64,000 nt of DNA from Gammaproteobacteria bacterium (GTDB taxonomy: Bacteria > Pseudomonadota > Gammaproteobacteria > Eutrophobiales > Eutrophobiaceae): the NCBI GenBank assembly GCA_016193395.1, contig JACPSH010000015.1, forward strand, positions 37,858-101,857. Direction: 5' to 3'. Made by a program: the position numbers and the translations under genes. This document shows positions 4,236 through 34,021 of the stretch, piece by piece (the stretch's first letter is position 1; each line of letters begins with the position of its first letter). The notes under the pieces are model-generated. The model saw nothing but the letters and a program-made list of their open reading frames with translations, searched no databases and was not told where the DNA came from.

Positions 4236-4246
4236 GAGACTGACTT

Positions 4247-6144: not shown

Positions 6145-6175
6145 ACATGGCACAATCCACAGTGGAGAGAATTCA

Positions 6176-7432: not shown

Positions 7433-7443
7433 TCCCTAACCCG

Positions 7444-8994: not shown

Positions 8995-9040
8995 TGATGC
9001 AAAAGTCCGACCATGGACTTTTGCATCACGCTGTTAGCAT
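8995..9040. repeat. 45-bp palindromic motif, copy 1 (overlaps the stop codon of the ADP-forming ACS gene)
   Basis: GATGCAAAAGTCCGACCATGGACTTTTGCATCACGCTGTTAGC has an 11-bp stem, TGCAAAAGTCC/GGACTTTTGCA. Confidence 0.75.
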
Positions 9041-11358: not shown

Positions 11359-11360
11359 GC

Positions 11361-11374
11361 TTGATCCCGATCAT
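11361..11374 (-). promoter_or_regulatory. FNR-like box TTGATcccgATCAt abutting the first ATG of the ADP-forming ACS ORF
   Basis: It is a 9/10 match. Its position is only consistent with a promoter if translation starts downstream (Met 11307 or 11094). Confidence 0.35.
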
Positions 11375-11633: not shown

Positions 11634-12323
11634 ATGCGTGCCTGGCGTATTTTCTCGGATCGCATAGAGGCCGGACAGGATCTGGCAAAGGCGCTGGCCG
11701 TACACCGCGGCCGACCGGACGTGGTCGTGCTCGGACTGCCCCGGGGCGGCGTGCCGGTGGCGTTCGAGGTAGCCCGCTTTCTGGGGGCGCCGCTGGATGT
11801 ACTGATTGTGCGCAAGCTCGGTGTACCCGGGCATACCGAACTCGCCATGGGGGCCATCGCCACGGGCGGCATCCGCCTGCTGAACGACGAGGTCATCCAG
11901 GCACTGCAGATCCCGATGGAACAGATTGACCGGGTCGCCGCGCAGGAGCAGCGCGAAATGTCGCGGCGCGAAATGGCCTACCGCGGCGACCGGCCGCCGC
12001 TGGACCTGCGTGGCCATGTCACCATCGTCGTGGACGACGGCATGGCCACGGGTTCCACCATGCGCGCGGCCGTGCAGGCCCTGCAGCGGCGCAACGCGTC
12101 GAAGATCGTCGTCGCCGTTCCCCATGCGCCCGCCGACACGGTCGGAGAGTTGCGCGCGATGGGCGCGGAAGTGGTGTGCCTGGAAATGCCCGAGCCCTAT
12201 TTTTCCGTTGGATCGTGGTATCGGGAGTTTCCGCAGGTCGACGATGCCGAGGTCAGAAATCTCATGAAGAAGGCCGGGCGGCGGGCGTTGAAGAGCGGGA
12301 GAGCAGCCGGCGGGCAAACTTAG
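11634..12323 (+). CDS. Phosphoribosyltransferase family protein
   Basis: Translation: MRAWRIFSDRIEAGQDLA...VVLGLPRGGVPVAFEVARFLGAPLDVLIVRKLG...TIVVDDGMATGSTMRAA... The PRTase PRPP-binding motif VVDDGxATGST is present. Confidence 0.7.
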   Translation: MRAWRIFSDRIEAGQDLAKALAVHRGRPDVVVLGLPRGGVPVAFEVARFLGAPLDVLIVRKLGVPGHTELAMGAIATGGIRLLNDEVIQALQIPMEQIDRVAAQEQREMSRREMAYRGDRPPLDLRGHVTIVVDDGMATGSTMRAAVQALQRRNASKIVVAVPHAPADTVGELRAMGAEVVCLEMPEPYFSVGSWYREFPQVDDAEVRNLMKKAGRRALKSGRAAGGQT

Positions 12324-12889
12324 CCGACGACGTGATGTTTGCCGACGACGCTGATCGACGTCGCCTGCGGCCCGGCTTCCCCCTGCTCTTCGTTGAAGCG
12401 CACCTCCGCGCCGATTTTCAGGTTGCCGAAGGCGGCGTTGATCAGGCTGTGGCGGTGAAAATACACGAGCCGGCCATCCGGTGTCGCCAGCCTCCCGAAA
12501 TTCTTTTCGGGCCAGAGTTCCGCAATGCGGCCGTGCAGCACCGGTTCGCGCGTCTTGACGTCCCCGCGACGGCGGCGCATGTAATCCTCCAGTTGCCGCG
12601 CGACGGCGTTGAACGCGTCCCGAACTGCCACGTAGACGTCCTCGTGCGCGTGGTGCCCACCGGGACTGCGCTTCACCACGATTTCCTCGCCGGGCACCGT
12701 GACATCGATCCGGATGTGATAGAGATTGCCCTTGTGGTGGTGCCGGTGCGGCGCCTCCACCATTACGCGGCAGCGCATGATCTGGTCACAGAACTTATCG
12801 AGCTTGTCCGTGCGCTCGCGGATGCGGGCCTCCACGGCCGCCGAGGGTTTAAGGTTACGGAAACTGATCTCCAGCGGGACCGATGCCAT
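12320..12889 (-). CDS. Ribosome hibernation promoting factor (HPF/RaiA, S30AE) fused to a C-terminal cold-shock-like domain
   Basis: The N-terminal ~110 aa (ISFRNLKPSAAVEARIRERTDKLDKF...YVAVRDAFNAVARQLEDY) match HPF/YfiA. The C-terminal ~65 aa (HGRIAELWPEKNFGRLATPDGRLVYFHRHSLI...LKIGAEVRFNEEQGEAGPQATSISV) follow the CspA pattern G-I-x-WF-x-KGFGFI...G-DVFVH-S-I...G-V-F...G-KGP-A. Confidence 0.65.
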   Translation of the reverse strand: MASVPLEISFRNLKPSAAVEARIRERTDKLDKFCDQIMRCRVMVEAPHRHHHKGNLYHIRIDVTVPGEEIVVKRSPGGHHAHEDVYVAVRDAFNAVARQLEDYMRRRRGDVKTREPVLHGRIAELWPEKNFGRLATPDGRLVYFHRHSLINAAFGNLKIGAEVRFNEEQGEAGPQATSISVVGKHHVVG

Positions 12890-13001
12890 GGACGTCCTCC
12901 AGCACGCGGCGTTGCGCGGCGACTACCGGACAGAGCATAACGTCATCGGCGCCGGGGGGAATGATCCCGGTCAAGTCCGGATCGCGGCGCGGTTTGCAGG
13001 A

Positions 13002-13970: not shown

Positions 13971-14041
13971 TCAGGCATGGGCCGGTAATGAAAAACTAAT
14001 CATACGCCGGCCGGTCACGGGGGTGTCCGGACGCCGGGTTT

Positions 14042-14058
14042 AGCTGATGTTTTCAGCT
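14042..14058 (+). promoter_or_regulatory. Inverted repeat AGCTGA-N5-TCAGCT ~70 bp upstream of fnr (candidate operator)
   Basis: It is a perfect 6-bp-arm palindrome in the glk/fnr divergent region. A wider imperfect inverted repeat (TAGCTGAT...ATGAGCTA) surrounds it. Confidence 0.3.
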
Positions 14059-14127
14059 CCCTGCGGATATGAGCTAAAATCGGCATGGACCGCCCGCTCC
14101 GGGCCGCCTGTACGGAAACGACCGCAA

Positions 14128-14871
14128 ATGGATGTACACGAACTAAAAATCTCCTGCCAGAAGTGCCGGCTCAGCGAGCTGTGCCTGCCGTATGGCCTGG
14201 AGTCAGAGGAGCTGGATCGCCTGGAGCATATCGTTCAGCGCCCGGCGCCGCTGCGGCGCGGCGAGGTCCTGTATCGCGCCGGCGGATCCTTCCATGCCAT
14301 CTATGCGGTCCGTTCCGGGGCCCTTAAGATTTTCTCCGGCTCGGAAGACGGGCACGAACAGATTTTGGGTTTTTATCTGCCCGGCGAACTGCTCGGCCTG
14401 GACGGCATGGACAAGGACCTCCACAAGTGCACCGCCGTGGCGCTCGAGACGAGTTCCGTATGCACCTTGCCGTTCAACCAGTTGAGCGTGCTGTGCGAAA
14501 AGATCCCGGGACTGCAGAAGCGCCTGTTCCGGCTCATCGGCCGGGAGATCGGCGTCGAACACGAATTGCTGCTGATGATGGGACAGAAGGACGCCGAGGA
14601 AAGGCTCGCCATCTTCCTGGTCACGCTGGCCGCCCGCTTCAAGAGGCGCGGCTACTCCCAGAGTGAATTCCGGCTGCCGATGAGCCGCCACGATCTCGCC
14701 AATTACCTCGGACTCACGCCCGAGACCGTGAGCCGGCTGTTTGGTCGTTTTCGCAAAAACGGGCTGATAGAGACCAACCGCAGTCTGGTCAAGCTCCTGG
14801 ACATGTCGCGTCTTGTAACGTTGTGCGCCGGCCCCGAGGATGCGGGCCGCCTGGCCGCCGTCATGAACTGA
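14128..14871 (+). CDS. fnr: Fnr/Anr-type oxygen-sensing CRP-family transcriptional regulator
   Basis: The N-terminal Cys cluster ISCQKCRLSELCLP plus an internal Cys in ...ETSSVCTLP correspond to the four [4Fe-4S] ligands of FNR. A C-terminal HTH (...DLANYLGLTPETVSRLFGRF...) is present. Overall similarity to E. coli FNR is close. Confidence 0.85.
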   Translation: MDVHELKISCQKCRLSELCLPYGLESEELDRLEHIVQRPAPLRRGEVLYRAGGSFHAIYAVRSGALKIFSGSEDGHEQILGFYLPGELLGLDGMDKDLHKCTAVALETSSVCTLPFNQLSVLCEKIPGLQKRLFRLIGREIGVEHELLLMMGQKDAEERLAIFLVTLAARFKRRGYSQSEFRLPMSRHDLANYLGLTPETVSRLFGRFRKNGLIETNRSLVKLLDMSRLVTLCAGPEDAGRLAAVMN

Positions 14872-14894
14872 GTCGCATCCTGTCGCGGACATTG

Positions 14895-14908
14895 TTGATC
14901 CAGATCAG
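14895..14908 (+). promoter_or_regulatory. Near-consensus FNR box TTGATccagATCAg upstream of the CBS-pair gene
   Basis: It is a 9/10 match to TTGAT-N4-ATCAA. It lies ~115 bp upstream of ATG 15017 and directly downstream of the fnr stop. Confidence 0.5.
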
Positions 14909-15016
14909 CAACCGTTCTTCCCTTTCGACCGATACTTTCCCTGCAGGATAAGCCGACCGGCCACAATGCCGGGCCGGGCGTTTCCGCCAGTCTGAACCAT
15001 TCTGGGAAGAGGGAAC

Positions 15017-15472
15017 ATGAGCGTAGGCCATGTCTGCAACCGCGAAGCCATCGTGGCCAATCGCGGCGACAGCCTCCTCGACATCGCGAAGCTGATGCGC
15101 AAGTACCACGTCGGCAGCGTCATTATCGTGGAACCCCACGGCGAACGTGTGCGCCCGATCGGGATCATTACCGACCGGGACCTGGTGGTCGAAATCCTGG
15201 CGGAGGAGCTGGACAACTCCACCGTTGCGCTGGAGGACGTCATGAGTCCGACCTTGATCACGGCCGAGGAGGACGACGACGTGTATGACGTCATCGAGGC
15301 CATGCGCAACCACGGCGTAAGGCGCGTGCCTGTCGTCGATCAGGAGGGATTCCTGGTCGGCGTCCTGGCCATGGATGACCTGCTCTGGAACCTGTCGCAG
15401 GAACTGGGGAACATCGTGGCCCTGATCGAACGTCAGACCGGGGCCGAGGCGAAGCGTCAGGCGCACGTGTAG
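15017..15472 (+). CDS. CBS-domain pair protein
   Basis: Two CBS repeats are present (...HVGSVIIVEP... and ...HGVRRVPVVDQEGFLVGVLAMDDL...). An FNR box lies about 115 bp upstream. Confidence 0.8.
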   Translation: MSVGHVCNREAIVANRGDSLLDIAKLMRKYHVGSVIIVEPHGERVRPIGIITDRDLVVEILAEELDNSTVALEDVMSPTLITAEEDDDVYDVIEAMRNHGVRRVPVVDQEGFLVGVLAMDDLLWNLSQELGNIVALIERQTGAEAKRQAHV

Positions 15473-15482
15473 GGAAGCTCTT

Positions 15483-15530
15483 TCCTTCATTTTCCAATCG
15501 CTTACGCGACTGGAAAATGGCCATACGTCC
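15483..15530. repeat. Related inverted repeat CCATTTTCCAATCGC-ttac-GCGACTGGAAAATGG followed by a second hairpin; terminator-like, between the CBS gene and the convergent kinase-like gene
   Basis: It is nearly identical in pattern to hairpin 3 of the 33826 cluster (CATTTTTCAATCGC...GCGATTGAAAAATG). A second hairpin, CCATAC-gtccat-GTATGG, follows. Confidence 0.6.
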
Positions 15531-15655
15531 ATGTATGGCGGCCGGCGCTCACACTGCGTCGCCGCCGGCGAAACGCCCCTGCCCTCTTCATTGCAATGCC
15601 GGTCACGGCGCATTCCTTTTGATGACGACGCGGACTGAAAGCCGTCCGATCCGCG

Positions 15656-17269
15656 TCACCGTTCCGGCACGAGCTTCGACGAGATCTGCCCGCACAGGCT
15701 GTCCATCTCGACGCCGGCTTCCGTGTCGATCCGAATGCGGGCGGCCTGCTCGCTGCCGTCCAGAGGTTCCAGGTTCGCGATCTGGTAGTCCAGCACCCGC
15801 GCATCGGCTTCCGATGCGTCGCCGCCGACTTTACGCCGCTCGTTCATTCGCCGGCGCAGCGTCGCCTCCCGGGCGCTGACCTCGAGAATGACCCAGGGGG
15901 CGCCCCGCTCGCGGGCAACACCTTCCAGGCACGCGCGCTGCTCGCGACGAAGACAGGCCGCATCGATGATGACGCAATGTCCGGCCTCCAGCACCTCCGC
16001 CGCGATCTGCGCGAGCCGGCCATATGTCGCCCCGGTCGCGGCTTCGGAATAGATCCCTGCCCCGGTTGCGGATCCCGACGCCTCCAGCGCGGCAAGACCA
16101 TGCAGACGCTTGCGCTCGATATCCGAACGGACGCGGACAGCGCCGAGCCGCTCGAGCAAATCTTGAGTCACGGAAGTCTTGCCGCTCCCGGACAGACCGA
16201 AAGCGATCAGGAGCGCCGCCGTGCGCGGGCCCGAATAGCCGCGGGCAAGGGACAGGTGAATCTGCCGCGACGCGGTTTCCGCGGCGCGCGCCTCCGCCTT
16301 GAACCCAGGCTGCTGCAGACGGATCGACGCGATTTTCGCGCGTACCAGGGCGCGGTACGCAAGATAGAAATTCAGCACCCCGAGCCCGCCATAATCACCG
16401 CTGTGCTCCAACCAGGCGTTGAGGAACCGCCAGGCCGGTCCCGTGCCGGCGCGCGCGCGCAAGTCCATCATCAGAAATGCGACTTCGTCGATTACGTCGA
16501 TCCAGCGCAAGCCCTCGGAAAACTCTACGCAATCGAAGATGACGAGTTCTCCGTCGTGAAGAACGATATTGCCGAGATGCATGTCGCCGTGGCACTCGCG
16601 TATGCCGCCGTGCTCCTGCCGCGCCTGGAACCGGGCGTGCAGAGCGTGGCACTGAACCCGTGTCCATTCCTCCAATTGCCGAAGTGATACGCGTTCATCA
16701 CCGGCCAAGGCGGGATCCGCCGCGAGTTGGCTCAAGTTGGCAAGCGCGGGATCGCGGATGCTTTCGATCGATCCGTGACGGGAGCCCGCGTCGGCGATGG
16801 TGGCGGACGCATGGAACCGGGCAATCTTCTCCGCAAGGCGATCGACCAGATCCGGAGTCAGCTCTTCGCGCGCCGCAATGCGGTCCAATTCCATTTCACG
16901 GGGAAACTGCAACATTCGAACCGCGTATTCCAGGACCGGCCCACTCCCGCCCAGGACGGGACGCTCCTGCGGGCCGGTGATGGACACGACCTCCAGGTAA
17001 TGCCGCGGGGCGAGCCGCCGGTTCAGTCTCAGTTCCTCTTCGCAGTAGTGCTTCCTTCGCGGGAGCGTCGTGAAATCGAGAAAACCGAGGTCCAGCGGCT
17101 TCTTGAACTTGTAGGCGTACGGCCCGGTCAACAGGATGATGGAGATGTGCGTTTCCACGATCGCCATCGTCGGCGCCGGGTGGTTAAAGCGCGCGTGATC
17201 GCGCACCGATTCGACCAGTCGCCTGAGCGCTGCAACAGGGTCCGCCTCCCGTGGATCCATCATGGCCAT
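15656..17269 (-). CDS. Bifunctional protein: aminoglycoside-phosphotransferase-like kinase domain + P-loop (zeta-toxin/AAA_33-like) ATP-binding domain
   Basis: The central region carries the APH/eukaryotic-like kinase catalytic motif HGDMHLGNIV...IFD. The C-terminal region carries a Walker A motif, LIAFGLSGSGKTSV. Confidence 0.7.
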   Translation of the reverse strand: MAMMDPREADPVAALRRLVESVRDHARFNHPAPTMAIVETHISIILLTGPYAYKFKKPLDLGFLDFTTLPRRKHYCEEELRLNRRLAPRHYLEVVSITGPQERPVLGGSGPVLEYAVRMLQFPREMELDRIAAREELTPDLVDRLAEKIARFHASATIADAGSRHGSIESIRDPALANLSQLAADPALAGDERVSLRQLEEWTRVQCHALHARFQARQEHGGIRECHGDMHLGNIVLHDGELVIFDCVEFSEGLRWIDVIDEVAFLMMDLRARAGTGPAWRFLNAWLEHSGDYGGLGVLNFYLAYRALVRAKIASIRLQQPGFKAEARAAETASRQIHLSLARGYSGPRTAALLIAFGLSGSGKTSVTQDLLERLGAVRVRSDIERKRLHGLAALEASGSATGAGIYSEAATGATYGRLAQIAAEVLEAGHCVIIDAACLRREQRACLEGVARERGAPWVILEVSAREATLRRRMNERRKVGGDASEADARVLDYQIANLEPLDGSEQAARIRIDTEAGVEMDSLCGQISSKLVPER

Positions 17270-17326
17270 GCCTTCCCAAATCCTTGCGGTAGACCTGCTT
17301 CAGCGGCGCGCGGCTTCGCGCCGCGA

Positions 17327-17340
17327 TTGATCCGGATCAA
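17327..17340. promoter_or_regulatory. Perfect consensus FNR box TTGATccggATCAA in the divergent region between the kinase-like gene (minus) and the host-attachment/archease operon (plus)
   Basis: Read directly from the sequence. The site is ~118 bp upstream of ATG 17452 and ~64 bp upstream of the minus-strand start at 17269. Confidence 0.65.
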
Positions 17341-17451
17341 GAATCGAATGCCGCGAACGACCACCGCTGAAATACCATTCGAATTGTCGCGTAGCATAAT
17401 GCATCCTGTATCGGCATCCGTGCGCGGCATGGCCGCAAGGGAGCGCAGACG

Positions 17452-17883
17452 ATGGAGCTGACCTGGGTAGTCGTTGCGGAAAGCAGCCGCGCGCGGATTT
17501 TTGTTTTCGAGGGATTGCAGTCGCCGCTGCGCGAGGTGGAAGATCTGGTCAACCCCGAAGCCCGGGCACATGAACGCGATCTCAAGTCCGATCGGCAGGG
17601 ACGCACCATCGACAGCACCGGTCAACGGCGTCATGCTAAACAGCCTGAAGTCAGCCCAAAGGAACAGCGCGTGATCGAGTTTGCGAAATCGGTCGCCGAG
17701 CGCGTCGAGCGGGCGCGGGCACAGGGCATGTTCAAGCGCCTCATCCTCGTCGCCGCACCCGGGTTCCTGGGCCTTTTGCGCGGGAGCCTCGGCGACGCGA
17801 CTCGCCAGTGCATCACGCGGGAGATACACAAGAATCTGGTGCGCAAGGACGAGAAAGCCATACGGAAGTCGATGAAACTCTGA
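17452..17883 (+). CDS. Host-attachment family protein (DUF-type, ~140 aa)
   Basis: The N-terminus MELTWVVVAESSRARIFVFE is the hallmark start (TWVVVAD-x-RARIF) of 'protein required for attachment to host cells' family members. Confidence 0.65.
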   Translation: MELTWVVVAESSRARIFVFEGLQSPLREVEDLVNPEARAHERDLKSDRQGRTIDSTGQRRHAKQPEVSPKEQRVIEFAKSVAERVERARAQGMFKRLILVAAPGFLGLLRGSLGDATRQCITREIHKNLVRKDEKAIRKSMKL

Positions 17884-17979
17884 GGGCCCTGCCGCTGATC
17901 CAGGGTCGCGGCGGATCCGGCCCCACTCTAGACATGCGCGCCGGAGGCGGCCCTGATCCAGATCAATCGACCCATCACG

Positions 17980-18447
17980 ATGGAATCCATCCCCGCCGGA
18001 CACGAGACCGGCAGCATCGGTGAGGGCGCGCCGCCGCGCTGGGAACATTTCGAGCACAAGGCGGATATCGGCGTGCGCGGCTTTGGCCGCACGCTCGCCG
18101 AATCCTTCGAACAGGCGGCGCTTGCGCTTACGGCGGTCGCCACCGATCCCGCCTCGGTGCAGGCCTCCGACATAGTGCAAGTCGAATGCCGCGCCGCGGA
18201 CACGGAACTGTTGCTGGCGGACTGGTTGAACACGATTATTTTCGAAGCGTCCACGCGCGGCATGCTGTTCGGGCGTTTCGCGGCGCAAATCAACGATGGC
18301 CATCTGCGCGGACAGTTGTACGGTGAACCGGTGGATCGGTTGCGCCACCAGCCGGCGGTCGAGGCGAAGGGCGCCACCTATACAGAGCTGCGCGTCGCGC
18401 GGCAACTCGACGGTCTCTGGGTCGCCCAGTGCGTTATTGATGTCTGA
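17980..18447 (+). CDS. Archease (RtcB activator/chaperone)
   Basis: The motifs FEHKADIGVRGFGRTLAESFEQAA... and the C-terminal ...AKGATYTELRV...WVAQCVIDV match the archease fold. It sits immediately upstream of rtcB. Confidence 0.75.
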   Translation: MESIPAGHETGSIGEGAPPRWEHFEHKADIGVRGFGRTLAESFEQAALALTAVATDPASVQASDIVQVECRAADTELLLADWLNTIIFEASTRGMLFGRFAAQINDGHLRGQLYGEPVDRLRHQPAVEAKGATYTELRVARQLDGLWVAQCVIDV

Positions 18448-18640
18448 AGCGCCGATAGGTTGCGGGATCGATGGCCGCCAATCGAGTAGCTTGCTGTATT
18501 CATGTCGCAATGGCCGCCTATCCGGGGGCGGGTCGGCCCGGCGTTCATCCGGCGGCGATGAGCGGCGCGCGGGCCAGGGACGGTGCAGCGCGACGCGACC
18601 GCAGCGAGCGCGGCCGGGACGCAGCGCGAGCGGGAGCCGG

Positions 18641-18676
18641 ATGAATCCGGCCGGACCGCCCGTTGCGAGGGACTAA
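18641..18676. repeat. Stand-alone copy of the 'tail' module ATGAATCCGGCCGGACCGCCCGTTGCGAGGGACT between archease and rtcB
   Basis: It is near-identical to 39466-39500. It is preceded by a degenerate GC-rich stretch (18560-18640) and followed by an AT-rich TTGAAAAA element. Confidence 0.7.
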
Positions 18677-18679
18677 CAG

Positions 18680-18755
18680 GTTGTTGAAAAATGGCGGCGC
18701 ATCCTGCACCGCTTTATCAGGCCGTTGAAAAGGCTTTTTCAACAGCCTGCTAACG
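18680..18755. repeat. AT-rich 'TTGAAAAA' element (family copy)
   Basis: GTTGAAAAATGGCGGCGCATCCTGCACCGCTTTATCAGGCCGTTGAAAAGGCTTTTTCAACAGCCTGCTA. It is homologous to 33926-33990 (...ATTGAAAAATGCCGGTACATCCCTGCACCG...CGAAAAACGCTGTTTTTCAACAGCCTGCTA). Confidence 0.75.
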
Positions 18756-18853
18756 GAAGCGGGCACCCGGAGTCCGCCTAGAACGCAGGGATTTTTCAAA
18801 CGAGTACCCCGTAAGCCGCCTTGGGTGGATGATTCGTTGACTGGAGCCGAGAA

Positions 18854-20284
18854 ATGCGCCTCGACAACCTGGAACGCGTATCGGATATTTGCTGGCGGCT
18901 TGAGCCACACGGCGCGATGCGCGTGCCCGTCATTATTTATGGCGACGAGGCGTTGCTGCGGGGGATGGACGACAAGGTGGCCGAACAGGCCGCGAATGTC
19001 ACCATGCTGCCCGGGATCGTGAATGCCGTGTACGCGATGCCGGACGCACACTGGGGCTACGGCTTCCCCGTCGGCGGCGTGGCCGCCTTCGACGCCGACG
19101 AGGGCGGAGTCGTCTCCGCGGGCGGCGTGGGTTTCGATATCTCCTGCGGCGTGCGCACCCTGCATACCGGCCTGCGCCGCGAGCAACTGGAACCGGTCAA
19201 GACGCGGTTGGCCGAGGAACTGTTCCGGACCATCCCCGTCGGACTCGGCAGCACCGGCCGCATCGATCTCGGCGCCGCGGAGATGGATGCGATGCTCCGG
19301 GGCGGTGCGCGCTGGGCGGTGGAGCAGGGTTATGGCGAAGAGCGCGACCTGGAACGGATCGAGGAGCGTGGCCGGATGGCCGGGGCCCGCCCCGAGCAGG
19401 TGTCCGCCCATGCCAAGCAGCGACAGCAGCGGGAAATGGGCACGCTCGGATCGGGCAATCACTACCTCGAAGTGCAGCAGGTTGTCGATATACTCGATCC
19501 CGCCGCGGCGGGCGCATTCGGGCTCGGCAGGGGCGACGTGGTCGTCAGCATCCATTGCGGCTCGCGCGGGCTCGGACACCAGATCGGAACCGATTTCCTC
19601 AAGGCCATGGTCACGGCCGCCCCGCGCCACGGCATCGTCCTGCCGGATCGCGAACTCGCCTGCGCGCCATTGTCATCGGAACTGGGCCAGAACTACCTGG
19701 GCGCCATGCGCGCCGCGATCAACTGCGCGCTTGCCAACCGCCAGATCATCACGCACCTTGCGCGCGAAGTCTTCCGGCGCATGCTGCCCACAGCGCGGCT
19801 CGATCTGTTTTACGATGTTTCGCACAATACCTGCAAACTGGAAGACCATCGCGTGGCCGGGCGCAACCGGCGCCTGTACGTGCATCGAAAGGGCGCCACG
19901 CGCTCGTTCGGCACCGGCCATGCCGACCTGCCGGAGGCCTTCCGCGAAGCCGGCCAGCCGGTATTGATCGGCGGGTCGATGGGCACCGCCTCGCACATCC
20001 TCGCGGGCGATCCCGACAACGACGAGAAGTCGTTCGCCTCCGCGTGCCACGGCGCCGGCCGGAGCATGAGCCGCCGCCAGGCATTGAAGACCTGGCAGGG
20101 GCGGAGCGTGGTGGACGAGCTGGCTGGCCGCGGCATTATCGTGCGCAGCCCTTCGCTGCGCGGCGTCGCGGAAGAAGCCCCGGGCGCGTACAAGGACGTG
20201 GACGCGGTAGTGGCCGCAACGGAACGGGCGGGTCTCGCGCGGCGCGTTGCGCGGCTGGAGCCGCTGCTGTGCATAAAGGGATGA
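18854..20284 (+). CDS. rtcB: RNA-splicing ligase RtcB (3'-phosphate/5'-hydroxyl nucleic acid ligase)
   Basis: The motifs PDAHWGYGFPVGGV, GGVGFDISCGVR and HNTCKLE...HRKGATRSF match RtcB active-site regions. The length is 476 aa. Confidence 0.9.
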   Translation: MRLDNLERVSDICWRLEPHGAMRVPVIIYGDEALLRGMDDKVAEQAANVTMLPGIVNAVYAMPDAHWGYGFPVGGVAAFDADEGGVVSAGGVGFDISCGVRTLHTGLRREQLEPVKTRLAEELFRTIPVGLGSTGRIDLGAAEMDAMLRGGARWAVEQGYGEERDLERIEERGRMAGARPEQVSAHAKQRQQREMGTLGSGNHYLEVQQVVDILDPAAAGAFGLGRGDVVVSIHCGSRGLGHQIGTDFLKAMVTAAPRHGIVLPDRELACAPLSSELGQNYLGAMRAAINCALANRQIITHLAREVFRRMLPTARLDLFYDVSHNTCKLEDHRVAGRNRRLYVHRKGATRSFGTGHADLPEAFREAGQPVLIGGSMGTASHILAGDPDNDEKSFASACHGAGRSMSRRQALKTWQGRSVVDELAGRGIIVRSPSLRGVAEEAPGAYKDVDAVVAATERAGLARRVARLEPLLCIKG

Positions 20285-20299
20285 GCTTCGCACCGGATC

Positions 20300-20480
20300 C
20301 CTCACGAACGCCAGGATCCGGGCGGGCGGGTTCTGTCATCGGACGCACCTGTCCGTGCTCGCTCCGGTCCCCTCCGCTTGCGCGCGGAGCAGGTGCGCCC
20401 GATGCCACCCGCCCGGTTTACGTGTCGGGGCGCGACAGGTGAACACGAAGGCGGTACCCGGCGACAGGACCCGTCCGCCC
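20300..20480. repeat. GC-rich imperfect-palindromic extragenic element (family copy, ~1.5 units) between rtcB and polX
   Basis: ...CCGTGCTCGCTCCGGTCCCCTCCGCTTGCGCGCGGAGCAGGTGCGCCCGATGCCACCCGCCCGG... followed by ...ACGAAGGCGGTACCCGGCGACAGGACCCGTCCG. It is homologous to the copies at 25195, 33727, 34022 and 39356. Confidence 0.75.
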
Positions 20481-20521
20481 GAAGCCTTGAACGTTTATGA
20501 ATAATCCGGGGCAACCAGCCG

Positions 20522-22225
20522 ATGCCCGTGCAGAATGAACACGTGGCTGAAATACTGGACGAGATCGCCGATCTGCTCGCCATCCAGGATGCCAACCCGT
20601 TCCGCGTGCGGGCGTACCACAATGCGGCGCGCACCGTGCGGGGGCTTTCCCGCGAACTGCATGATCTGATCGCACGCGGCAAGGACCTGACCGATCTTCC
20701 GGGGATAGGCGATGATCTCGCCGGCAAGATCAGGGAGATCGTCGGGACCGGCGCGTGCAGGGCCCTGGAAAAACTGCATCGACAGGTCCCGCACGAACTG
20801 GAGGAACTGCTCGCCGTCCCCGGGCTGGGGCCAAAACGGGTCAAGGCGCTGTTCTACGACCTGCGGATCCGCACCACGCAGCAGCTCGAGAAGGCGGCGC
20901 GCGCCGGCCGCCTGCGCAAGTTGCCGGGATTCGGCCAGAAGCTGGAACAGCGCATTCTTCAGGCCGTCGCCGCACGCCAGTCCGGGACGCGGCGCTTCAG
21001 CATCGACGTCGCGGAAGAATCCGGCGGAAAGCTCGCGGCCTATCTCGGATTGGTGCCGGGCACGGGCAAGGCCATCATTGCGGGCAGCTTTCGCCGCGGC
21101 CGTGAAACGGTCGGCGACCTCGACATCCTGGTGACGACCTCGCGGCCGGCGGCGGTCATGGAGCGATTCGCGGCTTACGACCAGGTGGCGCGCGTCACGT
21201 CCCGGGGCGCCACGCGTGCCTCCGCCGTCCTTCGGAACGGGCTGCAGGTGGATCTGCGGGTCGTGCCGAAGCAGAGTTTCGGCGCCGCCCTGCACTATTT
21301 CACCGGGGGCAAGGCGCATAACATCCGGGTCCGGACCCTCGGCCAGAAGTTCGGCCTGAAAATCAACGAATATGGCGTGTTCCGCGGAGCGAGACGCGTC
21401 GCCGGAGCGACTGAAGCATCCGTGTTCAAGTCCGTGGGCCTGCCCTTGATACCGCCAGAATTAAGGGAAGACCGCGGCGAGATCGAGGCAGCGCGCGCGC
21501 ACCGCCTGCCGCGGCTGGTCGAAGAAGGCGACCTCAGGGGCGATCTGCACGTCATCGCGAACGGGCGGGACGATCTGGTTGCGATGGCCATCGCCGCAAA
21601 GCGGCGGGGCCTGCGCTATATCGCCTTCACGATCCGGCAGGGACCGGACGCGCCGGCGGACGCCGTGCTCCGGCAACTCGACCGTATCGACCAGATCCGT
21701 GAACGCGCTGATGGCATGGTACTGCTCAAGGGGATCGAAGCCGAGATTCCCGAGGACGGCAGGCTGGACCTCCCGACCGAGGTGCTTGCGCGCCTCGATC
21801 TTCTGATCGGCGCGGCGCACGGGCAGTTCGAACTGACTCGCGCCAGGCAAACGGCGCGGCTGCTGCGAGCCATGGACAGCCCCTGTTTCACCATCCTGGC
21901 CCATCCGGGCGGACGCCTCCTGCCGGAGCGCGATGCCTGCTCGGTGGACATGGAGCGGATCGTGCGCGCCGCGCGCGTGCGCGGTTGTTTCCTGGAACTG
22001 AACTCACAACCGCAACGGCTCGACCTGGCCGACGTCCATTGCCAGATGGCGAAGGCGGAGGGCGTCCTGGTCAGCATCAACAGCGGCGCCCGCCAAGGGG
22101 AGGACTTCCGGGATCTGCGTTTCGGAATAACCCAGGCGCGGCGCGGATGGCTCGAAAAGGACGATGTGCTGAATACGCGTCCGCACGCCGCGTTGAAGCG
22201 GCTGCTCCGGCGGACGATGGACTGA
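20522..22225 (+). CDS. polX: Family X DNA polymerase with C-terminal PHP (3'-5' exonuclease/phosphoesterase) domain
   Basis: The N-terminal helix-hairpin-helix regions (LLAIQDANPFRVRAYHNAARTV, LPGIGDDLAGKIREIV, VPGLGPKRVKALF), the pol-beta palm motif GSFRRGRETVGDLDILV and the C-terminal PHP histidine motifs (HxH...) together indicate a PolX-PHP protein. Confidence 0.9.
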   Translation: MPVQNEHVAEILDEIADLLAIQDANPFRVRAYHNAARTVRGLSRELHDLIARGKDLTDLPGIGDDLAGKIREIVGTGACRALEKLHRQVPHELEELLAVPGLGPKRVKALFYDLRIRTTQQLEKAARAGRLRKLPGFGQKLEQRILQAVAARQSGTRRFSIDVAEESGGKLAAYLGLVPGTGKAIIAGSFRRGRETVGDLDILVTTSRPAAVMERFAAYDQVARVTSRGATRASAVLRNGLQVDLRVVPKQSFGAALHYFTGGKAHNIRVRTLGQKFGLKINEYGVFRGARRVAGATEASVFKSVGLPLIPPELREDRGEIEAARAHRLPRLVEEGDLRGDLHVIANGRDDLVAMAIAAKRRGLRYIAFTIRQGPDAPADAVLRQLDRIDQIRERADGMVLLKGIEAEIPEDGRLDLPTEVLARLDLLIGAAHGQFELTRARQTARLLRAMDSPCFTILAHPGGRLLPERDACSVDMERIVRAARVRGCFLELNSQPQRLDLADVHCQMAKAEGVLVSINSGARQGEDFRDLRFGITQARRGWLEKDDVLNTRPHAALKRLLRRTMD

Positions 22226-22600
22226 CAGAACCGCCCGGCTCAGCGTTTCCAGGCCGCCACGAGCCGGCGACACTCCCTGCGCCATTCGCAGTCCCCGTTT
22301 CGGCAATGGAGGCGCTCCTGCGTCATGAAGCAGGCCTTCCTGCCGGCGGCCCTCTGTTCGGAACGCACCCATTCCGTTCTGGAAACAAAGGTGGTGGATC
22401 GCACCGGCAGCCACTTCCCTTGTACTGCCGCCACGGTTTCGGTACGTTGTGTCGCCATGCCTCGTCGAACTCCTGCCTTGCGGGATCTTGCAGCGTTTGT
22501 CTGATCCCGGGGTCGCGACTGACCGCGTGACCTTCACCCCCTGAATCCGGCGCAACCGGAAACAGACTGCCGCTCTTTTATCAAAGGTAGATGACCCACG

Positions 22601-22614
22601 GGACAATTCGTTTG
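22601..22614 (+). promoter_or_regulatory. FNR/CRP-like palindrome TTGACacagATCAA ~30 bp upstream of glgP
   Basis: It is a 9/10 match to the FNR consensus. Its spacing to the ATG at 22644 is short, so it may act as an operator or be coincidental. Confidence 0.3.
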
Positions 22615-22643
22615 ACACAGATCAAGAGCAGGCGACGTTCGCG

Positions 22644-25178: not shown

Positions 25179-25194
25179 GTCGAAGAGCGGCGAT

Positions 25195-25315
25195 TGACGG
25201 ACGGGTGGCACCGGGGACTCCTGTTCCGCGCGCAGCGAGAGGGCCTCTCCAGCGGCTGGTTCAAGCGAGCACGGACAGGAGTGCCCGGTGACAGGACCCG
25301 TCCGCTGACCCGCGT
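25195..25315. repeat. GC-rich imperfect-palindromic extragenic element between convergent glgP and malQ
   Basis: GGACGGGTGGCACCGGGGACTCCTGTTCCGCGCGCAGCGAGAGG...GAGCACGGACAGGAGTGCCCGGTGACAGGACCCGTCCG. The outer arms are reverse complements (GGACGGGTGGCACCGGG / CCCGGTGACAGGACCCGTCC). Confidence 0.8.
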
Positions 25316-26757: not shown

Positions 26758-26787
26758 ACTGCCGGAGGGGCCCGCTGGTGCTCCGCG

Positions 26788-29773: not shown

Positions 29774-29954
29774 CCGAGCGCCGGGTGCGGCGGCTGTCGG
29801 TCGGCCGCGCGCGACTTCCGTTCAGGCTACGGAACCGGGCCGGGCGCATGCTGACCCAGGTCAATATGGTAACGATTACCGGCGATTATTCTAGGCATCG
29901 TACCCCGGAACGGCATAACGAAAACGTGCGGGGTCGACAATTGAGGAGGCGATC

Positions 29955-32141: not shown

Positions 32142-32236
32142 CCGCCCGCCGCGCATCGCGTCCGCCGGCGGCGGTACGGAACGCAACCGTTCCGCGGCGG
32201 ACGCGCGCGCGCGCCCGGACGGCGCCGCGGATCCTG

Positions 32237-33688: not shown

Positions 33689-33726
33689 AGCCGGCCGGCT
33701 ACATTTCGAAATGTTGCCGGACGGGT

Positions 33727-33995: not shown

Positions 33996-34021
33996 AATCC
34001 GACCGGATTCAGGCATAGGTG

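What the first reader, a model, noticed from the sequence alone, without database searches (positions are those of the whole stretch)
17327..22225. Candidate FNR-regulated nucleic-acid repair module: host-attachment-family protein, archease, RtcB and PolX-PHP
A perfect FNR box (TTGATccggATCAA) lies upstream of a co-directional set of four genes. These are a host-attachment-family protein, archease (the RtcB cofactor), RtcB (the 3'-P/5'-OH ligase) and a family-X DNA polymerase with a PHP domain. They are separated only by repeat-containing spacers.

There is no RtcR/sigma-54 activator and no RtcA cyclase next to rtcB. These are the usual partners in the regulated rtcBA operon. A PolX directly downstream is reminiscent of end-healing and gap-filling repair systems.

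The combination suggests an anaerobically controlled RNA/DNA end-repair unit.
Basis: partly seen in the sequence, partly recalled or inferred. Interest (0 to 1): 0.5.

Follow-up and report, generated by a model that had tools for sequence, protein, structure and literature searches.

The report
FNR-controlled hypoxia operon: mini-release-factor, RtcB, PolX
The four genes and the oxygen-sensor (FNR) binding site are real, but the cluster looks like one piece of a low-oxygen dormancy island built around ribosome hibernation and RNA re-ligation, a proteobacterial counterpart of the tuberculosis dormancy genes Rv2629 and Rv2631, rather than a DNA/RNA end-repair machine.

Summary
**Observation: confirmed.**
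- A perfect FNR box (17327-17340) precedes four co-directional genes: a Host_attach protein, archease, RtcB and PolX.
- The two long spacers are dispersed hairpin repeats that a 77%-identical relative lacks.
- A Cys-cluster fnr gene lies 2.5 kb upstream.

**Interpretation: partly supported.**
- FNR control is well supported. The box sits at a fixed distance upstream of this gene family in 20 of 49 lineages (2.0 versus 0.07 sites per kb).
- Two homologues in Bradyrhizobium are published as microoxia-induced. One of them is listed as a FixK2 target.
- "Host attachment" is a misnomer. The protein is a single-domain aeRF1/Balon-like protein (Pfam baeRF family 12), and its best structural match is the ribosome hibernation factor Balon.
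- The trio baeRF12-archease-RtcB is conserved in this clade. PolX follows in only three of six relatives with sequence or gene calls downstream of RtcB.
- In this lineage the PolX PHP domain has lost five of nine metal ligands, so no "end-healing" activity is expected.
- Missing RtcA and RtcR is normal for archease-type RtcB.
- Neighbouring genes (an HPF-cold-shock fusion, a CBS protein, a phosphoribosyltransferase, a nitroreductase, glycogen genes) mirror hypoxia regulons in other bacteria.

**Verdict:** a new variant of a known kind, of moderate interest.

The parts
14047..14871 (+). fnr gene. The likely cognate regulator; it lies outside the finding's coordinates.
   Evidence: NCBIfam NF008365 Fnr scores 259.9 bits against a cutoff of 228. 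It is 44% identical to E. coli K-12 FNR, with Cys20, Cys23, Cys29, Cys122 and the ETxSR recognition helix all aligned.
17327..17340 (.). FNR box 1, TTGATCCGGATCAA. It starts 125 nt upstream of the baeRF12 ATG.
   Evidence: The box is invariant and at the same distance in L174, L093, L175 and L086, while the flanks diverge. Boxes of this type are enriched 28-fold upstream of baeRF12 genes generally.
17392..17400 (+). Best -10-like element, TAGCATAAT. It would put box 1 at about -70 to -73, a class I-like position.
   Evidence: Read directly from the sequence. It is conserved in L174 and L093, partly in L175, and not in L086. This is an inference; no transcription start site data exist.
17421..17443 (+). 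Conserved 5'-UTR element: a small GCGGC/GCCGC hairpin followed by a Shine-Dalgarno sequence (GGAG).
   Evidence: These are invariant columns in alignment A2 of five relatives. The hairpin is predicted in all four sequences folded, but it is not more stable than in shuffled sequences.
17452..17883 (+). baeRF family 12 / 'Host_attach' protein, 143 aa. A single-domain aeRF1/Balon-like protein.
   Evidence: Pfam PF10116 and PF18856. The AF2 model has pLDDT 81. The best PDB matches are Balon/Msmeg1130 8v9l_z (E 1e-5, TM 0.62), then aRF1, Pelota and eRF1. The family spans 8,350 clusters at 50% identity; all but a few of the 150 best-scoring representatives are about 140-155 aa.
17925..17930 (-). TAGAGT on the minus strand, exactly 22 nt from box 2. 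A possible -10 of an antisense class II FNR promoter.
   Evidence: The CACTCTAG motif and its spacing to box 2 are conserved in the window, L174 and L086, while the sequence between them varies. Its function is untested.
17953..17966 (.). FNR-like box 2, CTGATCCAGATCAA. It ends 13 nt before the archease ATG.
   Evidence: It is conserved in L174 (3 nt before the ATG), L086 and L087. It is too close to the ATG to activate an archease promoter on the plus strand.
17980..18447 (+). Archease, the RtcB guanylylation cofactor.
   Evidence: PF01951, E 1e-36. It scores 96 bits to P. horikoshii archease 4n2p, and the WEHFEHxADIG motif is present. Archease sits immediately upstream of RtcB in 74 of 80 relatives.
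18448..18853 (.). 406-nt spacer carrying dispersed repeat units, including inverted TTTTTCAACAGCCTGCTAA copies at 18673-18753.
   Evidence: The equivalent gap is 12 nt in L086. A different repeat insertion occupies the same place in L174. The overall fold is not significant (z -0.9).
18854..20284 (+). RtcB 3'-phosphate/5'-OH RNA ligase of the archaeal/eukaryal type.
   Evidence: PF01139, 564 bits. It scores 514 bits to P. horikoshii RtcB, 485 to T. thermophilus and 402 to human RTCB. The motifs holding the Asp, Cys and His active-site residues (as I recall them) are conserved in the alignment.
20285..20521 (.). 237-nt spacer: a REP/MITE-like long hairpin, roughly 20319-20481.
   Evidence: The RNA fold is -135 kcal/mol, z -6.9. 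A 74-nt match (88%) lies at 39383-39454, and shorter matches (20-42 nt) lie near 25200-25305 and 33720-34110. The equivalent gap is 3 nt in L086.
20522..22225 (+). Family X DNA polymerase with an intact polymerase core and a degenerate PHP domain.
   Evidence: It scores 417 bits to ttPolX 3au2. The Asp triad is intact. Among the PHP ligands, H344 is deleted, D349 is N, H374 is lost, D529 is G and H531 is R. The closest relative L174 also lacks these five. L086 and five other relatives keep all nine.
15656..17269 (-). Divergent neighbour: an APH-like kinase fused to an AAA_33 P-loop kinase.
   Evidence: Pfam. It is conserved next to baeRF12 in L174, L175, L086, L087, L093 and L095.
14895..15472 (+). 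FNR-like box (14895-14908, TTGATCCAGATCAG) and a CBS-pair protein gene (15017-15472).
   Evidence: A box sits at a similar position before the CBS gene in L086 and L175. The protein scores 44 bits to M. tuberculosis Rv2626c.
12320..12974 (-). HPF (Ribosomal_S30AE) fused to a cold-shock domain, with a 2-mismatch FNR-like box at 12961-12974, 72 nt upstream.
   Evidence: Pfam. It scores 165 bits to PDB 9t0z_9, 'Ribosome hibernation promoting factor'. The box is; L086 has a 1-mismatch box at the equivalent position.
22612..22625 (.). FNR-like box TTGACACAGATCAA upstream of the glucan phosphorylase gene (22644-25178). It marks the downstream end of the unit.
   Evidence: The identical box is found in L086 and L174.

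Best explanation
**What it is.** The region is an FNR-activated operon. It belongs to a larger low-oxygen dormancy island.

**Proposed sequence of events**
1. When oxygen falls, the [4Fe-4S] FNR encoded 2.5 kb upstream binds box 1.
2. FNR turns on transcription of baeRF12. Transcription continues into archease, because there is no room for a separate archease promoter. It probably continues, attenuated by the inserted hairpin repeats, into rtcB and polX.
3. The 143-aa baeRF12 protein is a stand-alone copy of the aeRF1/Balon middle domain. It lacks a GGQ motif. It most likely docks at the ribosomal A site or peptidyl-transferase centre as a non-catalytic hibernation or rescue factor.
4. Archease-activated RtcB re-ligates rRNA or tRNA that has been cut to 2',3'-cyclic-phosphate and 5'-OH ends during dormancy.
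5. PolX, which acts here as a polymerase only because its PHP site is dead, fills small DNA gaps in non-replicating cells.

**Shown:** gene identities, the fold of baeRF12, conservation of the FNR box, conservation of the gene trio, and loss of the PHP ligands.

**Inferred:** FNR binding and oxygen response in this organism, the transcript structure, ribosome binding by baeRF12, the RNA substrates of RtcB, and any physical coupling between baeRF12 and RtcB.
For: **Regulator and site**
- The box is perfect and statistically unexpected.
- The FNR has all four cluster cysteines and the ETVSR recognition helix.
- Box 1 is invariant, with no indels over 155 nt, in five relatives whose flanks diverge.
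- Across 87 baeRF12 loci, boxes occur at 2.0 per kb in the 250 nt upstream against 0.07 per kb elsewhere. They are present in 20 of 49 protein clusters (binomial P about 1e-22). They usually lie 73-98 nt before the ATG. In many of the 35 distinct upstream sequences I read by eye, a -10-like hexamer sat at or near 23-28 nt after the box, which is class II geometry.
- FNR-like sites in the first 40 kb are concentrated in intergenic DNA: 9 of 15 sites fall in 11% of the sequence.

**Published experimental parallel**
- Two B. diazoefficiens 'host attachment proteins', bll5315 and bll4645, are induced 15- and 22-fold by microoxia.
- bll5315 is listed as a direct FixK2 (CRP/FNR family) target.
- bll4645 sits in a locus-tag run with USP, CBS, PCMT, nitroreductase and glucokinase genes that are also microoxia-induced (PMC6515984).

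**Protein identity**
- The fold search places the protein next to Balon, aRF1, Pelota and eRF1.
- Burroughs and Aravind described stand-alone baeRF-1 core-domain families linked to HPF (PMC6514570).
- Balon genes neighbour RaiA and RtcB, and the M. tuberculosis homologue Rv2629 is hypoxia-induced (PMC10901736). Rv2631 is an RtcB in the same DosR block (PMC5309233).

**Gene order**
- baeRF12-archease-RtcB is found in the window, L174, L086, L087 and L089.
- The gaps between archease, RtcB and PolX are only 12 and 3 nt in L086.
- In L174 the archease ATG is 3 nt after box 2, which leaves no space for its own promoter.
- No plus-strand terminator and no sigma-70-like promoter was found in the spacers.

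**Context**
- An HPF-CSD fusion, a CBS protein, a PRTase, a nitroreductase and glycogen genes lie nearby.
- Around archease-RtcB in 80 other bacteria, PRTase (11 loci), HPF (9), CBS (8) and PolX (7) recur within 6 kb.
Against: - No expression or binding data exist for this organism, which is an uncultured gammaproteobacterial MAG.
- In the window clade the class II -10 slot after box 1 is poor (ACCGCT). The promoter geometry is therefore uncertain; it looks class I-like at about -70 to -73.
- The conserved box 2 is unexplained. Its geometry fits an antisense promoter better than a sense one.
- The 406-nt and 237-nt structured insertions may uncouple rtcB and polX from the baeRF12 promoter.
- baeRF12 lacks the N and C domains that Balon uses to bind the decoding centre and EF-Tu, so ribosome binding is not assured. 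A sequence profile search found no solved relative.
- Below about 55% identity most baeRF12 genes are solitary. The link to RtcB is therefore clade-specific.
Confidence: 0.55

Rival explanations
1. Co-regulated but mechanistically independent neighbours. The cluster would be a regulon island in which only archease and RtcB work together. baeRF12, RtcB and PolX would each do a separate maintenance job under hypoxia, and their adjacency would reflect shared FNR control and drift of gene order.
For: - baeRF12 is solitary in most lineages yet keeps its FNR box.
- PolX is present in only three of six clade members with sequence or gene calls downstream of RtcB, and its orientation varies elsewhere.
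- The island components are shuffled between relatives. For example, in L090 baeRF12 sits beside the nitroreductase block that lies 16 kb away in the window.
Against: - The baeRF12-archease-RtcB order persists down to 57% identity, in three different wider contexts.
- Balon-RtcB and PrfH-RtcB2 show that pairings of release-factor-fold proteins with RtcB recur independently.
Confidence: 0.25
2. One reading: an anaerobically controlled RNA/DNA end-repair unit. PolX-PHP would heal and fill DNA or RNA ends, and RtcB would seal them.
For: - RtcB-polX adjacency occurs with a 3-nt gap in L086 and a 34-nt gap in L174.
- PolX lies within 6 kb of RtcB in 7 of 80 relatives. By my rough estimate that is far above chance for a single-copy gene.
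Against: - The PHP metal-binding site is destroyed in the window and in L174.
- PolX is absent downstream of RtcB in L087, L089 and the P0006 contig.
- No ligase-partner end-healing enzymes (RtcA, Pnkp/Hen1, Ku/LigD) were seen in the window.
- The model leaves the release-factor-fold protein unexplained.
Confidence: 0.12
3. A counter-conflict RNA repair system. RtcB would reverse damage by toxin or phage ribonucleases, in the manner of PrfH-RtcB2 against colicin E3, and the FNR box would be incidental.
For: - Burroughs and Aravind place RtcB systems and baeRF-1 proteins in biological-conflict contexts.
- The phyletic pattern of baeRF12 is patchy.
Against: - There are no PADLOC hits for any of the six proteins tested.
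- The genes sit in a syntenic chromosomal metabolic island rather than a mobile one.
- The FNR box is conserved across lineages.
- The RtcB does not reach the cutoff of the PrfH-linked 'release_rtcB' model (133 bits against 271.8).
Confidence: 0.05
4. The box serves only the divergent APH/AAA_33 kinase gene, or it is a chance palindrome.
For: The box is closer to the kinase ATG (58 nt) than to the baeRF12 ATG (112 nt).
Against: - The distance to the kinase ATG is not conserved: 58 nt in the window against about 220 nt in L086. The distance to baeRF12 is invariant.
- Boxes persist upstream of baeRF12 where no kinase gene is present.
- Chance expectation is 0.05 per window.
Confidence: 0.03

Closest known systems
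M. tuberculosis DosR dormancy regulon, block Rv2623-Rv2631 (Rv2626c CBS/Hrp1, Rv2629 Balon homologue, Rv2631 RtcB), plus Rv0079 HPF, Rv0571c PRTase and the nitroreductases
   Same: - A hypoxia-controlled set that pairs an aeRF1-fold ribosome factor with RtcB.
- The same accessory kinds occur nearby: HPF, a CBS pair, a phosphoribosyltransferase and a nitroreductase.
   Different: - The regulator is FNR with a TTGAT-N4-ATCAA box, not the DosR two-component system.
- The aeRF1-like protein is a 143-aa single domain, not the three-domain Rv2629.
- A PolX is attached.
- Whether Rv2630 is an archease could not be verified here.
Balon ribosome hibernation factors (Helena-Bueno et al. 2024, PMC10901736)
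   Same: - It is the best structural match (8v9l_z, E 1e-5).
- No conserved GGQ motif.
- Stress-operon context with HPF and RtcB neighbours.
   Different: - Only the middle domain is present.
- It lacks the N domain with its HP motif, which contacts the decoding centre.
- It lacks the C domain that contacts EF-Tu.
- No similarity is detectable at the sequence level.
Pfam PF18856 baeRF_family12 / PF10116 Host_attach (Burroughs and Aravind 2019, PMC6514570); B. diazoefficiens bll5315 and bll4645
   Same: - It is a direct family member.
- Stand-alone core-domain baeRF-1 families and their link to HPF were predicted.
- Microoxic induction of both homologues, and FixK2 control of bll5315, are published for the alphaproteobacterial homologues.
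   Different: - An operon fusion with archease-RtcB(-PolX) and conserved FNR boxes in Gammaproteobacteria did not turn up in the papers I searched.
- In the papers I read, no one has tested ribosome binding for this family.
Archease-RtcB 'tRNA splicing/RNA repair' operon (Desai et al. 2014 and 2015; PMC3973293, PMC4604427)
   Same: Archease lies immediately upstream of an archaeal-type RtcB, as in 74 of 80 relatives.
   Different: - Here the pair is split by a 406-nt repeat insertion.
- It is preceded by a release-factor-fold gene with FNR boxes.
PrfH-RtcB2 ribosome rescue and repair module (PMC9304027)
   Same: A release-factor-like protein is encoded next to an RtcB ligase. This is a plausible analogy for rescue followed by rRNA ligation.
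   Different: - PrfH is a bacterial RF-type protein with a GGQ motif, whereas baeRF12 has an aeRF1 fold and no GGQ.
- This RtcB fails the release_rtcB model cutoff.
- Archease is present here.
E. coli rtcBA-rtcR system
   Same: It encodes an RtcB-family ligase.
   Different: - Identity is only 30%.
- No RtcA, RtcR or sigma-54 control is present.
- It is archease-dependent.
Bacterial PolX (T. thermophilus, B. subtilis)
   Same: Full-length POLXc plus PHP architecture with an intact polymerase Asp triad.
   Different: Five of the nine PHP metal ligands are lost in the window and in L174.

Membership tests
FNR regulon member (FNR-dependent promoter) | Match to TTGAT-N4-ATCAA in a promoter-proximal intergenic region | tested here: met
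   A perfect match at 17327-17340, starting 125 nt before the ATG.
FNR regulon member (FNR-dependent promoter) | Cognate FNR with an N-terminal Cys cluster, Cys122 and the E-SR recognition helix encoded in the genome | tested here: met
   NF008365 scores above its cutoff. All residues align with E. coli FNR.
FNR regulon member (FNR-dependent promoter) | Site conserved upstream of orthologues | tested here: met
   The box is invariant at the same distance in five relatives. It occurs in 20 of 49 clusters, a 28-fold enrichment.
FNR regulon member (FNR-dependent promoter) | Site centred at -41.5 (class II) or at -61.5 or beyond (class I) relative to a mapped transcription start | tested here: inconclusive
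   Many other baeRF12 loci show a -10-like hexamer at or near the class II distance. The window clade does not. Its best -10 gives a position of about -70 to -73. No transcription start data exist.
FNR regulon member (FNR-dependent promoter) | Oxygen- and FNR-dependent expression; FNR binding | not testable with these tools
   Only an indirect parallel is available: microoxic induction of two Bradyrhizobium homologues, one of them a listed FixK2 target.
Pfam baeRF_family12 / Host_attach | Scores above the Pfam gathering cutoff over the full length | tested here: met
   PF10116 scores 141 bits (cutoff 26.7). PF18856 scores 116 bits (cutoff 27.7).
Balon / aeRF1-type ribosome factors | aeRF1-like middle-domain fold | tested here: met
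   The Foldseek top hits are Balon, aRF1, Pelota and eRF1, with probability 1.00 and TM about 0.5-0.63.
Balon / aeRF1-type ribosome factors | Three-domain architecture: N domain (decoding centre), M domain, C domain (EF-Tu) | tested here: not met
   The protein is 143 aa and a single domain. Nearly all of the 150 best-scoring family representatives are also about 140-155 aa.
Balon / aeRF1-type ribosome factors | Binds the ribosomal A site and inhibits translation | not testable with these tools
   Inference from the fold and the gene context only.
Catalytic release factors (aeRF1, PrfH) | Conserved GGQ motif in the catalytic loop | tested here: not met
   The loop at residues 39-61 carries SDRxGR...RHA. 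No invariant Gln appears in the 39-sequence alignment.
Archease-dependent RtcB ligase pair | Full-length RtcB with conserved active-site motifs, plus an adjacent archease with the N-terminal acidic motif | tested here: met
   Adjacency holds in 74 of 80 relatives.
E. coli-type rtcBA/RtcR operon | RtcA cyclase and a sigma-54 activator RtcR adjacent | tested here: not met
   Neither was found in the 64-kb window. RtcA is present in 1 of 85 related loci and RtcR in none.
PrfH-linked RtcB2 | Matches TIGR03073 release_rtcB above its cutoff; prfH adjacent | tested here: not met
   The score is 133 bits against a cutoff of 271.8. No RF-1-type gene is adjacent.
Bacterial PolX (POLXc plus PHP) | Polymerase catalytic Asp triad | tested here: met
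   The residues equivalent to D198, D200 and D243 are present.
Bacterial PolX (POLXc plus PHP) | Nine PHP metal-binding residues | tested here: not met
   Only four are retained in the window and in L174. All nine are retained in six other relatives. Pfam PHP is not hit, and NF006375 scores 406 against a cutoff of 426.
Known anti-phage defence systems | Match to a PADLOC model | tested here: not met
   No hits at E up to 0.01 for the six proteins tested.

The most novel reading that the evidence does not exclude
- The single-domain baeRF12 protein would be a 'mini-Balon'. It would occupy the A site or peptidyl-transferase centre of ribosomes idled by oxygen loss.
- It would also license or recruit archease-RtcB to re-ligate cleaved rRNA or tRNA in place.
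- That would make the operon an FNR-wired ribosome hibernation-and-repair unit. Functionally it would parallel PrfH-RtcB2 and M. tuberculosis Rv2629 with Rv2631.
- It would imply that Actinobacteria (through DosR) and Proteobacteria (through FNR or FixK2) share a hypoxic dormancy toolkit: an HPF chimera, a CBS pair, a PRTase, a nitroreductase, an aeRF1-fold factor and RtcB.
Probability: 0.3. Interest if true: 0.7.

Novelty: new variant of a known kind. Interest (0 to 1): 0.5.

Why it matters
- **A testable role for a large family.** 'Host attachment protein' (PF10116) spans 8,350 clusters at 50% identity and has a misleading name. I found no study of its function in the papers I searched. Here it gains a testable role as a hypoxia-induced, release-factor-fold translation factor.
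- **A physiological setting for bacterial RtcB.** The role of archease-type RtcB in bacteria remains poorly understood. Placing it in a low-oxygen dormancy setting suggests when and where to look for its substrates.
- **A shared toolkit across phyla.** The same gene kinds recur under DosR in mycobacteria, FixK2 in rhizobia and FNR here. This suggests that a common toolkit for ribosome preservation and repair has been wired to different oxygen sensors. That bears on persistence and antibiotic tolerance.
- **A natural experiment in PolX.** The polymerase with a dead PHP domain separates the polymerase function from the nuclease function.

Tried and rejected
- **Non-coding RNAs in the spacers.** An Rfam search of 13500-23000 at E up to 1 found no family, and there are no tRNAs in the window. 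I found no evidence that the spacers hide a Y-RNA-like or other known RNA.
- **Sequence link to solved structures.** A profile search of the baeRF12 alignment against PDB sequences gave no meaningful hit. Only the fold comparison linked it to Balon and aeRF1.
- **Independent promoters or terminators.** The simple scan gave one sigma-70-like hit, inside rtcB, against 0.7 expected. It gave no plus-strand terminator in the spacers. This is uninformative for a GC-rich uncultured organism.
- **Class II promoter at box 1 in the window.** The -10 slot is poor on both strands, so I rejected it as a clean class II site.
- **Box 2 as an archease promoter.** I rejected this because the box ends 13 nt (window), 3 nt (L174) or 5 nt (L087) before the start codon, and no alternative downstream start exists.
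- **FNR boxes upstream of polX in other loci.** Only weak 2-mismatch sites were found.
- **A scanning artefact.** FNR-like matches at the 3' end of rtcB in many loci are coding coincidences from the C-terminal L-(I/L)-C-I-K motif. I did not count them towards the archease-upstream tally; they remain in the background rate, which makes the enrichment estimate conservative.
- **Defence-system membership.** There were no PADLOC hits.
- **Literature checks that failed.** Rv2630 as an archease and Rv2004c as an APH/AAA kinase were recalled from memory and could not be confirmed. Neither is used as evidence.

Full report
**1. Observation**

- TTGATCCGGATCAA lies at 17327-17340. The 64-kb window has two perfect TTGAT-N4-ATCAA sites against 0.05 expected, and none of 100 shuffles reached two.
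- With one mismatch allowed there are seven sites against 0.77 expected.
- Downstream, on the plus strand, lie four ORFs with the high third-position GC typical of real genes in this window.

| Coordinates | Product | Evidence |
|---|---|---|
| 17452-17883 | PF10116 Host_attach, also PF18856 baeRF_family12 | |
| 17980-18447 | Archease | |
| 18854-20284 | RtcB | |
| 20522-22225 | Family X polymerase, 417 bits to T. thermophilus PolX | |

- The spacers are 96, 406 and 237 nt.
- No RtcA cyclase or sigma-54 activator was found in the window, by Pfam on the ORFs scanned or by tblastn of the whole window with the E. coli proteins.
- The window comes from an uncultured gammaproteobacterial MAG.

**2. 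The regulator and the box**

A CRP/FNR-family gene lies at 14047-14871.
- It scores above NCBI's cutoff for Fnr.
- It is 44% identical to E. coli FNR.
- Cys20, Cys23, Cys29, Cys122 and the E-SR recognition helix all align.

Box 1 lies between divergent genes, so I asked which gene it serves.
- In five relatives (baeRF12 77-86% identical) the 155 nt upstream of baeRF12 align without a single indel. The box is invariant at 125 nt from the ATG, while the flanks diverge.
- In L086 the distance to the divergent kinase ATG grows from 58 to about 220 nt.

I then collected 87 baeRF12 loci from metagenomes and encoding contigs.
- Boxes with at most one mismatch occur at 2.0 per kb in the 250 nt upstream of the ATG, against 0.07 per kb elsewhere.
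- They are present in 20 of 49 protein clusters at about 80% identity (binomial P about 1e-22).
- Most lie 73-98 nt before the ATG. In many of the 35 distinct upstream sequences I read by eye, a -10-like hexamer (TAGCAT, CATAAT, GATCAT, TACAAT) sat at or near 23-28 nt after the box. That is the class II FNR arrangement.
- These loci mostly lack the kinase gene, archease and RtcB. The box therefore belongs to the baeRF12 gene itself.

In the window clade the class II slot is poor. The best -10 (TAGCATAAT, 17392-17400) would put the site near -70 to -73, which is class I-like. This remains an inference.

Published data fit this picture. In Bradyrhizobium diazoefficiens two 'host attachment proteins' are induced 15- and 22-fold by microoxia, and one of them is listed as a direct FixK2 target (PMC6515984).

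**3. What the 'host-attachment' protein is**

- The Pfam name is historical. The same protein matches baeRF family 12. This is one of the bacterial aeRF1-like families of Burroughs and Aravind, three of which retain only the core domain and which are linked by gene neighbourhood to the hibernation factor HPF (PMC6514570).
- An AlphaFold model (pLDDT 81; a disordered loop at residues 39-61) finds the mycobacterial Balon homologue Msmeg1130 as its best solved match (E 1e-5, TM 0.62). Next come aRF1, Pelota, eRF1, Psychrobacter Balon and Rv2629.
- A sequence profile search finds nothing in the PDB.
- The loop carries a conserved SDRxGR...RHA motif but no conserved Gln. Peptidyl-tRNA hydrolysis is therefore unlikely.
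- The family is large, at 8,350 clusters of 50% identity. All but a few of the 150 best-scoring representatives are about 140-155 aa.
- Balon is a three-domain A-site hibernation factor. Its genes neighbour RaiA and RtcB, and its M. tuberculosis homologue Rv2629 is hypoxia-induced (PMC10901736).
- The window protein shares the fold and the context. It fails the three-domain test, so I describe it as Balon-like and not as a Balon.

**4. Gene order in relatives**

- Archease lies directly upstream of RtcB in 74 of 80 relatives whose RtcB is 64-73% identical.
- baeRF12-archease-RtcB occurs in the window, L174, L086, L087 and L089 (baeRF12 identity 86% down to 57%), in three different wider contexts.
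- One 78% relative has baeRF12 followed directly by RtcB, with no archease called.
- More distant baeRF12 genes are mostly solitary, or lie about 4 kb from archease-RtcB.
- PolX follows RtcB in the window, L174 and L086. It does not in L087, L089 or the 78% relative.
- Among the 80 RtcB loci, PolX lies within 6 kb in seven, in either orientation. That is an island-level association, not a fixed operon.
- In L086 the gaps from archease to RtcB and from RtcB to PolX are 12 and 3 nt.

The window's long spacers are therefore secondary insertions.
- They share units with other intergenic regions of the window.
- The RtcB-PolX spacer folds into a -135 kcal/mol hairpin (z -6.9).
- L174 carries a different insertion of the same repeat kind between archease and RtcB.

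**5. The enzymes**

- RtcB is the archaeal/eukaryal type: 514 bits to P. horikoshii RtcB and 402 bits to human RTCB. The motifs that hold the active-site Asp, Cys and His residues are conserved in the alignment.
- It is only 30% identical to E. coli RtcB.
- RtcA is near RtcB in 1 of 85 related loci, and RtcR in none. Their absence is normal for this class.
- PolX keeps the polymerase Asp triad.
- Measured against T. thermophilus PolX, five of the nine PHP metal ligands are lost: H344 deleted, D349N, H374 lost, D529G and H531R.
- The closest relative, L174, has lost the same five by different substitutions. L086 and five other relatives keep all nine.
- The PHP half is also less conserved than the polymerase half (75% against 89% identity to L174). 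The loss is therefore real and shared, not an assembly error.
- It removes the activities that an 'end-healing' role would need. That those activities reside in the PHP domain is from my own knowledge of the B. subtilis and T. thermophilus enzymes.

**6. Context**

The left 40 kb of the window reads like a low-oxygen regulon.
- Genes include a LOG-family protein, an ADP-forming acetyl-CoA synthetase, a phosphoribosyltransferase and an HPF fused to a cold-shock domain.
- They also include glucokinase, fnr, a CBS-pair protein, the APH/AAA kinase and the four-gene set.
- A glycogen gene cluster and a nitroreductase follow.
- The HPF fusion scores 165 bits to a PDB chain named 'Ribosome hibernation promoting factor'. 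HPF-Csp chimeras located near Balon genes are described in preprint 10.1101/2025.11.04.686544.
- Nine of the fifteen FNR-like sites with at most two mismatches fall in the 11% of this stretch that is intergenic. They lie upstream of HPF-CSD, CBS, baeRF12, archease, glgP and others. Several recur at the same places in L086, L174 and L175.
- Around archease-RtcB in the 80 other bacteria, PRTase (11 loci), HPF (9), CBS (8) and PolX (7) recur.
- The M. tuberculosis DosR regulon contains the same kinds: Rv0079 HPF, Rv0571c PRTase, nitroreductases, Rv2626c CBS, Rv2629 Balon and Rv2631 RtcB (PMC5309233).

**7. Mechanism**

Most likely, with confidence 0.55:
1. Low oxygen activates FNR, which acts at box 1.
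2. baeRF12 and archease are co-transcribed. In L174 the archease ATG is 3 nt after box 2, so archease has no promoter of its own.
3. Read-through continues, possibly attenuated, into rtcB and polX.
4. baeRF12 acts on ribosomes as a non-catalytic A-site or PTC factor.
5. Archease-RtcB reseals cleaved rRNA or tRNA.
6. PolX acts as a gap-filling polymerase only.

The main rival (0.25) is that these are co-regulated but mechanistically independent neighbours. A conflict-system reading (0.05) lacks support: there are no PADLOC hits and the genes sit in a syntenic chromosomal island.

**8. Unexplained**

- Box 2 (CTGATCCAGATCAA, 17953-17966) is conserved in the window, L174, L086 and L087.
- It is too close to the archease start codon to activate a sense promoter.
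- On the minus strand a TAGAGT hexamer lies exactly 22 nt from the box in the window, L174 and L086, while the sequence between them varies. That is the geometry of a class II FNR promoter firing antisense into baeRF12.
- The alternative is a roadblock that tunes read-through. Neither reading could be tested here.

**9. Novelty and score**

- Each element is known: the archease-RtcB pair, baeRF families, the Balon-RtcB neighbourhood, hypoxic induction of Host_attach proteins, and PolX.
- Three things did not turn up in the papers I searched:
  - the conserved FNR box as a family-wide feature of baeRF12 genes in Gammaproteobacteria;
  - the fusion of a single-domain aeRF1-like gene with archease-RtcB(-PolX) in one transcription unit;
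  - the lineage-specific inactivation of the PolX PHP site.
- I rate this a new variant of a known kind, with interest 0.5.

Noticed in passing
window 12320-12974 (minus strand): A ribosome hibernation factor (HPF, Ribosomal_S30AE) is fused to a cold-shock domain. A 2-mismatch FNR-like box lies 72 nt upstream. The protein scores 165 bits to PDB chain 9t0z_9, 'Ribosome hibernation promoting factor'. The same gene is present in L086 and L175, and L086 has a 1-mismatch box at the equivalent position.
   Followed up: partly
window 17925-17966; L174 about 2001-2042; L086 about 8470-8511: A second FNR-like box lies just before the archease start codon. A conserved CACTCTAG motif sits exactly 22 nt upstream of it. 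On the minus strand this reads as a TAGAGT -10 at class II distance. That suggests an FNR-dependent antisense promoter into baeRF12, or else a roadblock site.
   Followed up: partly
window 21530-22225; L174 4221-5948: The PolX PHP domain has lost five of nine metal-binding residues in the window. Its closest relative has lost the same five by different substitutions. Six other relatives keep all nine. The PHP half is also less conserved than the polymerase half (75% against 89% identity).
   Followed up: yes
window 18640-18800, 20319-20481, 25200-25305, 33700-34140, 39089-39500: A family of dispersed intergenic repeats, REP/MITE-like and GC-rich with long hairpins, plus a TTTTTCAACAGCCTGCTA(A/G) unit. 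They are inserted between operon genes here and, independently, in L174. They have no Rfam match.
   Followed up: partly
window 17421-17443: A small conserved GCGGC/GCCGC hairpin lies immediately 5' of the baeRF12 Shine-Dalgarno sequence. It is invariant in five relatives, including the diverged L086. Its fold energy is not better than that of shuffled sequences.
   Followed up: partly
window 14895-15472: A CBS-pair protein gene is preceded by an FNR-like box 122 nt upstream, and the box position is conserved in L086 and L175. The protein is distantly similar to M. tuberculosis Rv2626c (Hrp1). Similar CBS genes lie near archease-RtcB in 8 of 80 other bacteria.
   Followed up: partly
window 899-8712: The second perfect FNR box (1477-1490) lies between a divergent cytochrome c gene and a run of genes: AMP-binding CoA ligase, alcohol dehydrogenase, enoyl-CoA hydratase, thiolase and a URO-D-like protein. 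This may be an anaerobic acyl-CoA pathway.
   Followed up: no
window 9034-11374: An ADP-forming acetyl-CoA synthetase (ATP-grasp, CoA-binding and succinyl-CoA-ligase-like domains) has an FNR-like box only 3 nt upstream of its annotated ATG. The true start is probably further downstream. The same box is present in L175.
   Followed up: no
window 22612-33688: An FNR-like box, TTGACACAGATCAA, precedes the glucan phosphorylase gene and is identical in L086 and L174. A full glycogen gene set follows: malQ, GH57, glgC, glgB and glgA.
   Followed up: no
contig of P0006 (no DNA available): In a relative with 78% identity the order is fnr, CBS, baeRF12, then RtcB directly (455 aa, no archease called), followed by a nitroreductase gene. 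This is a variant in which the release-factor-fold gene abuts RtcB itself.
   Followed up: no
L001-L080, about position 7411 (3' end of rtcB): The conserved C-terminal RtcB residues L-(I/L)-C-I-K encode CTGATCTGCATCAA-like strings. These mimic FNR boxes in many genomes and are a source of false positives in motif scans.
   Followed up: yes
L090, L094, L096, L097, L100, L101; window 34175-38279: In several lineages baeRF12 sits between a LOG-family gene and a block of nitroreductase, Ser/Thr kinase, HemN-like and Ham1 genes. The same block lies 16 kb away from baeRF12 in the window. The island has therefore been rearranged around these genes.
   Followed up: partly
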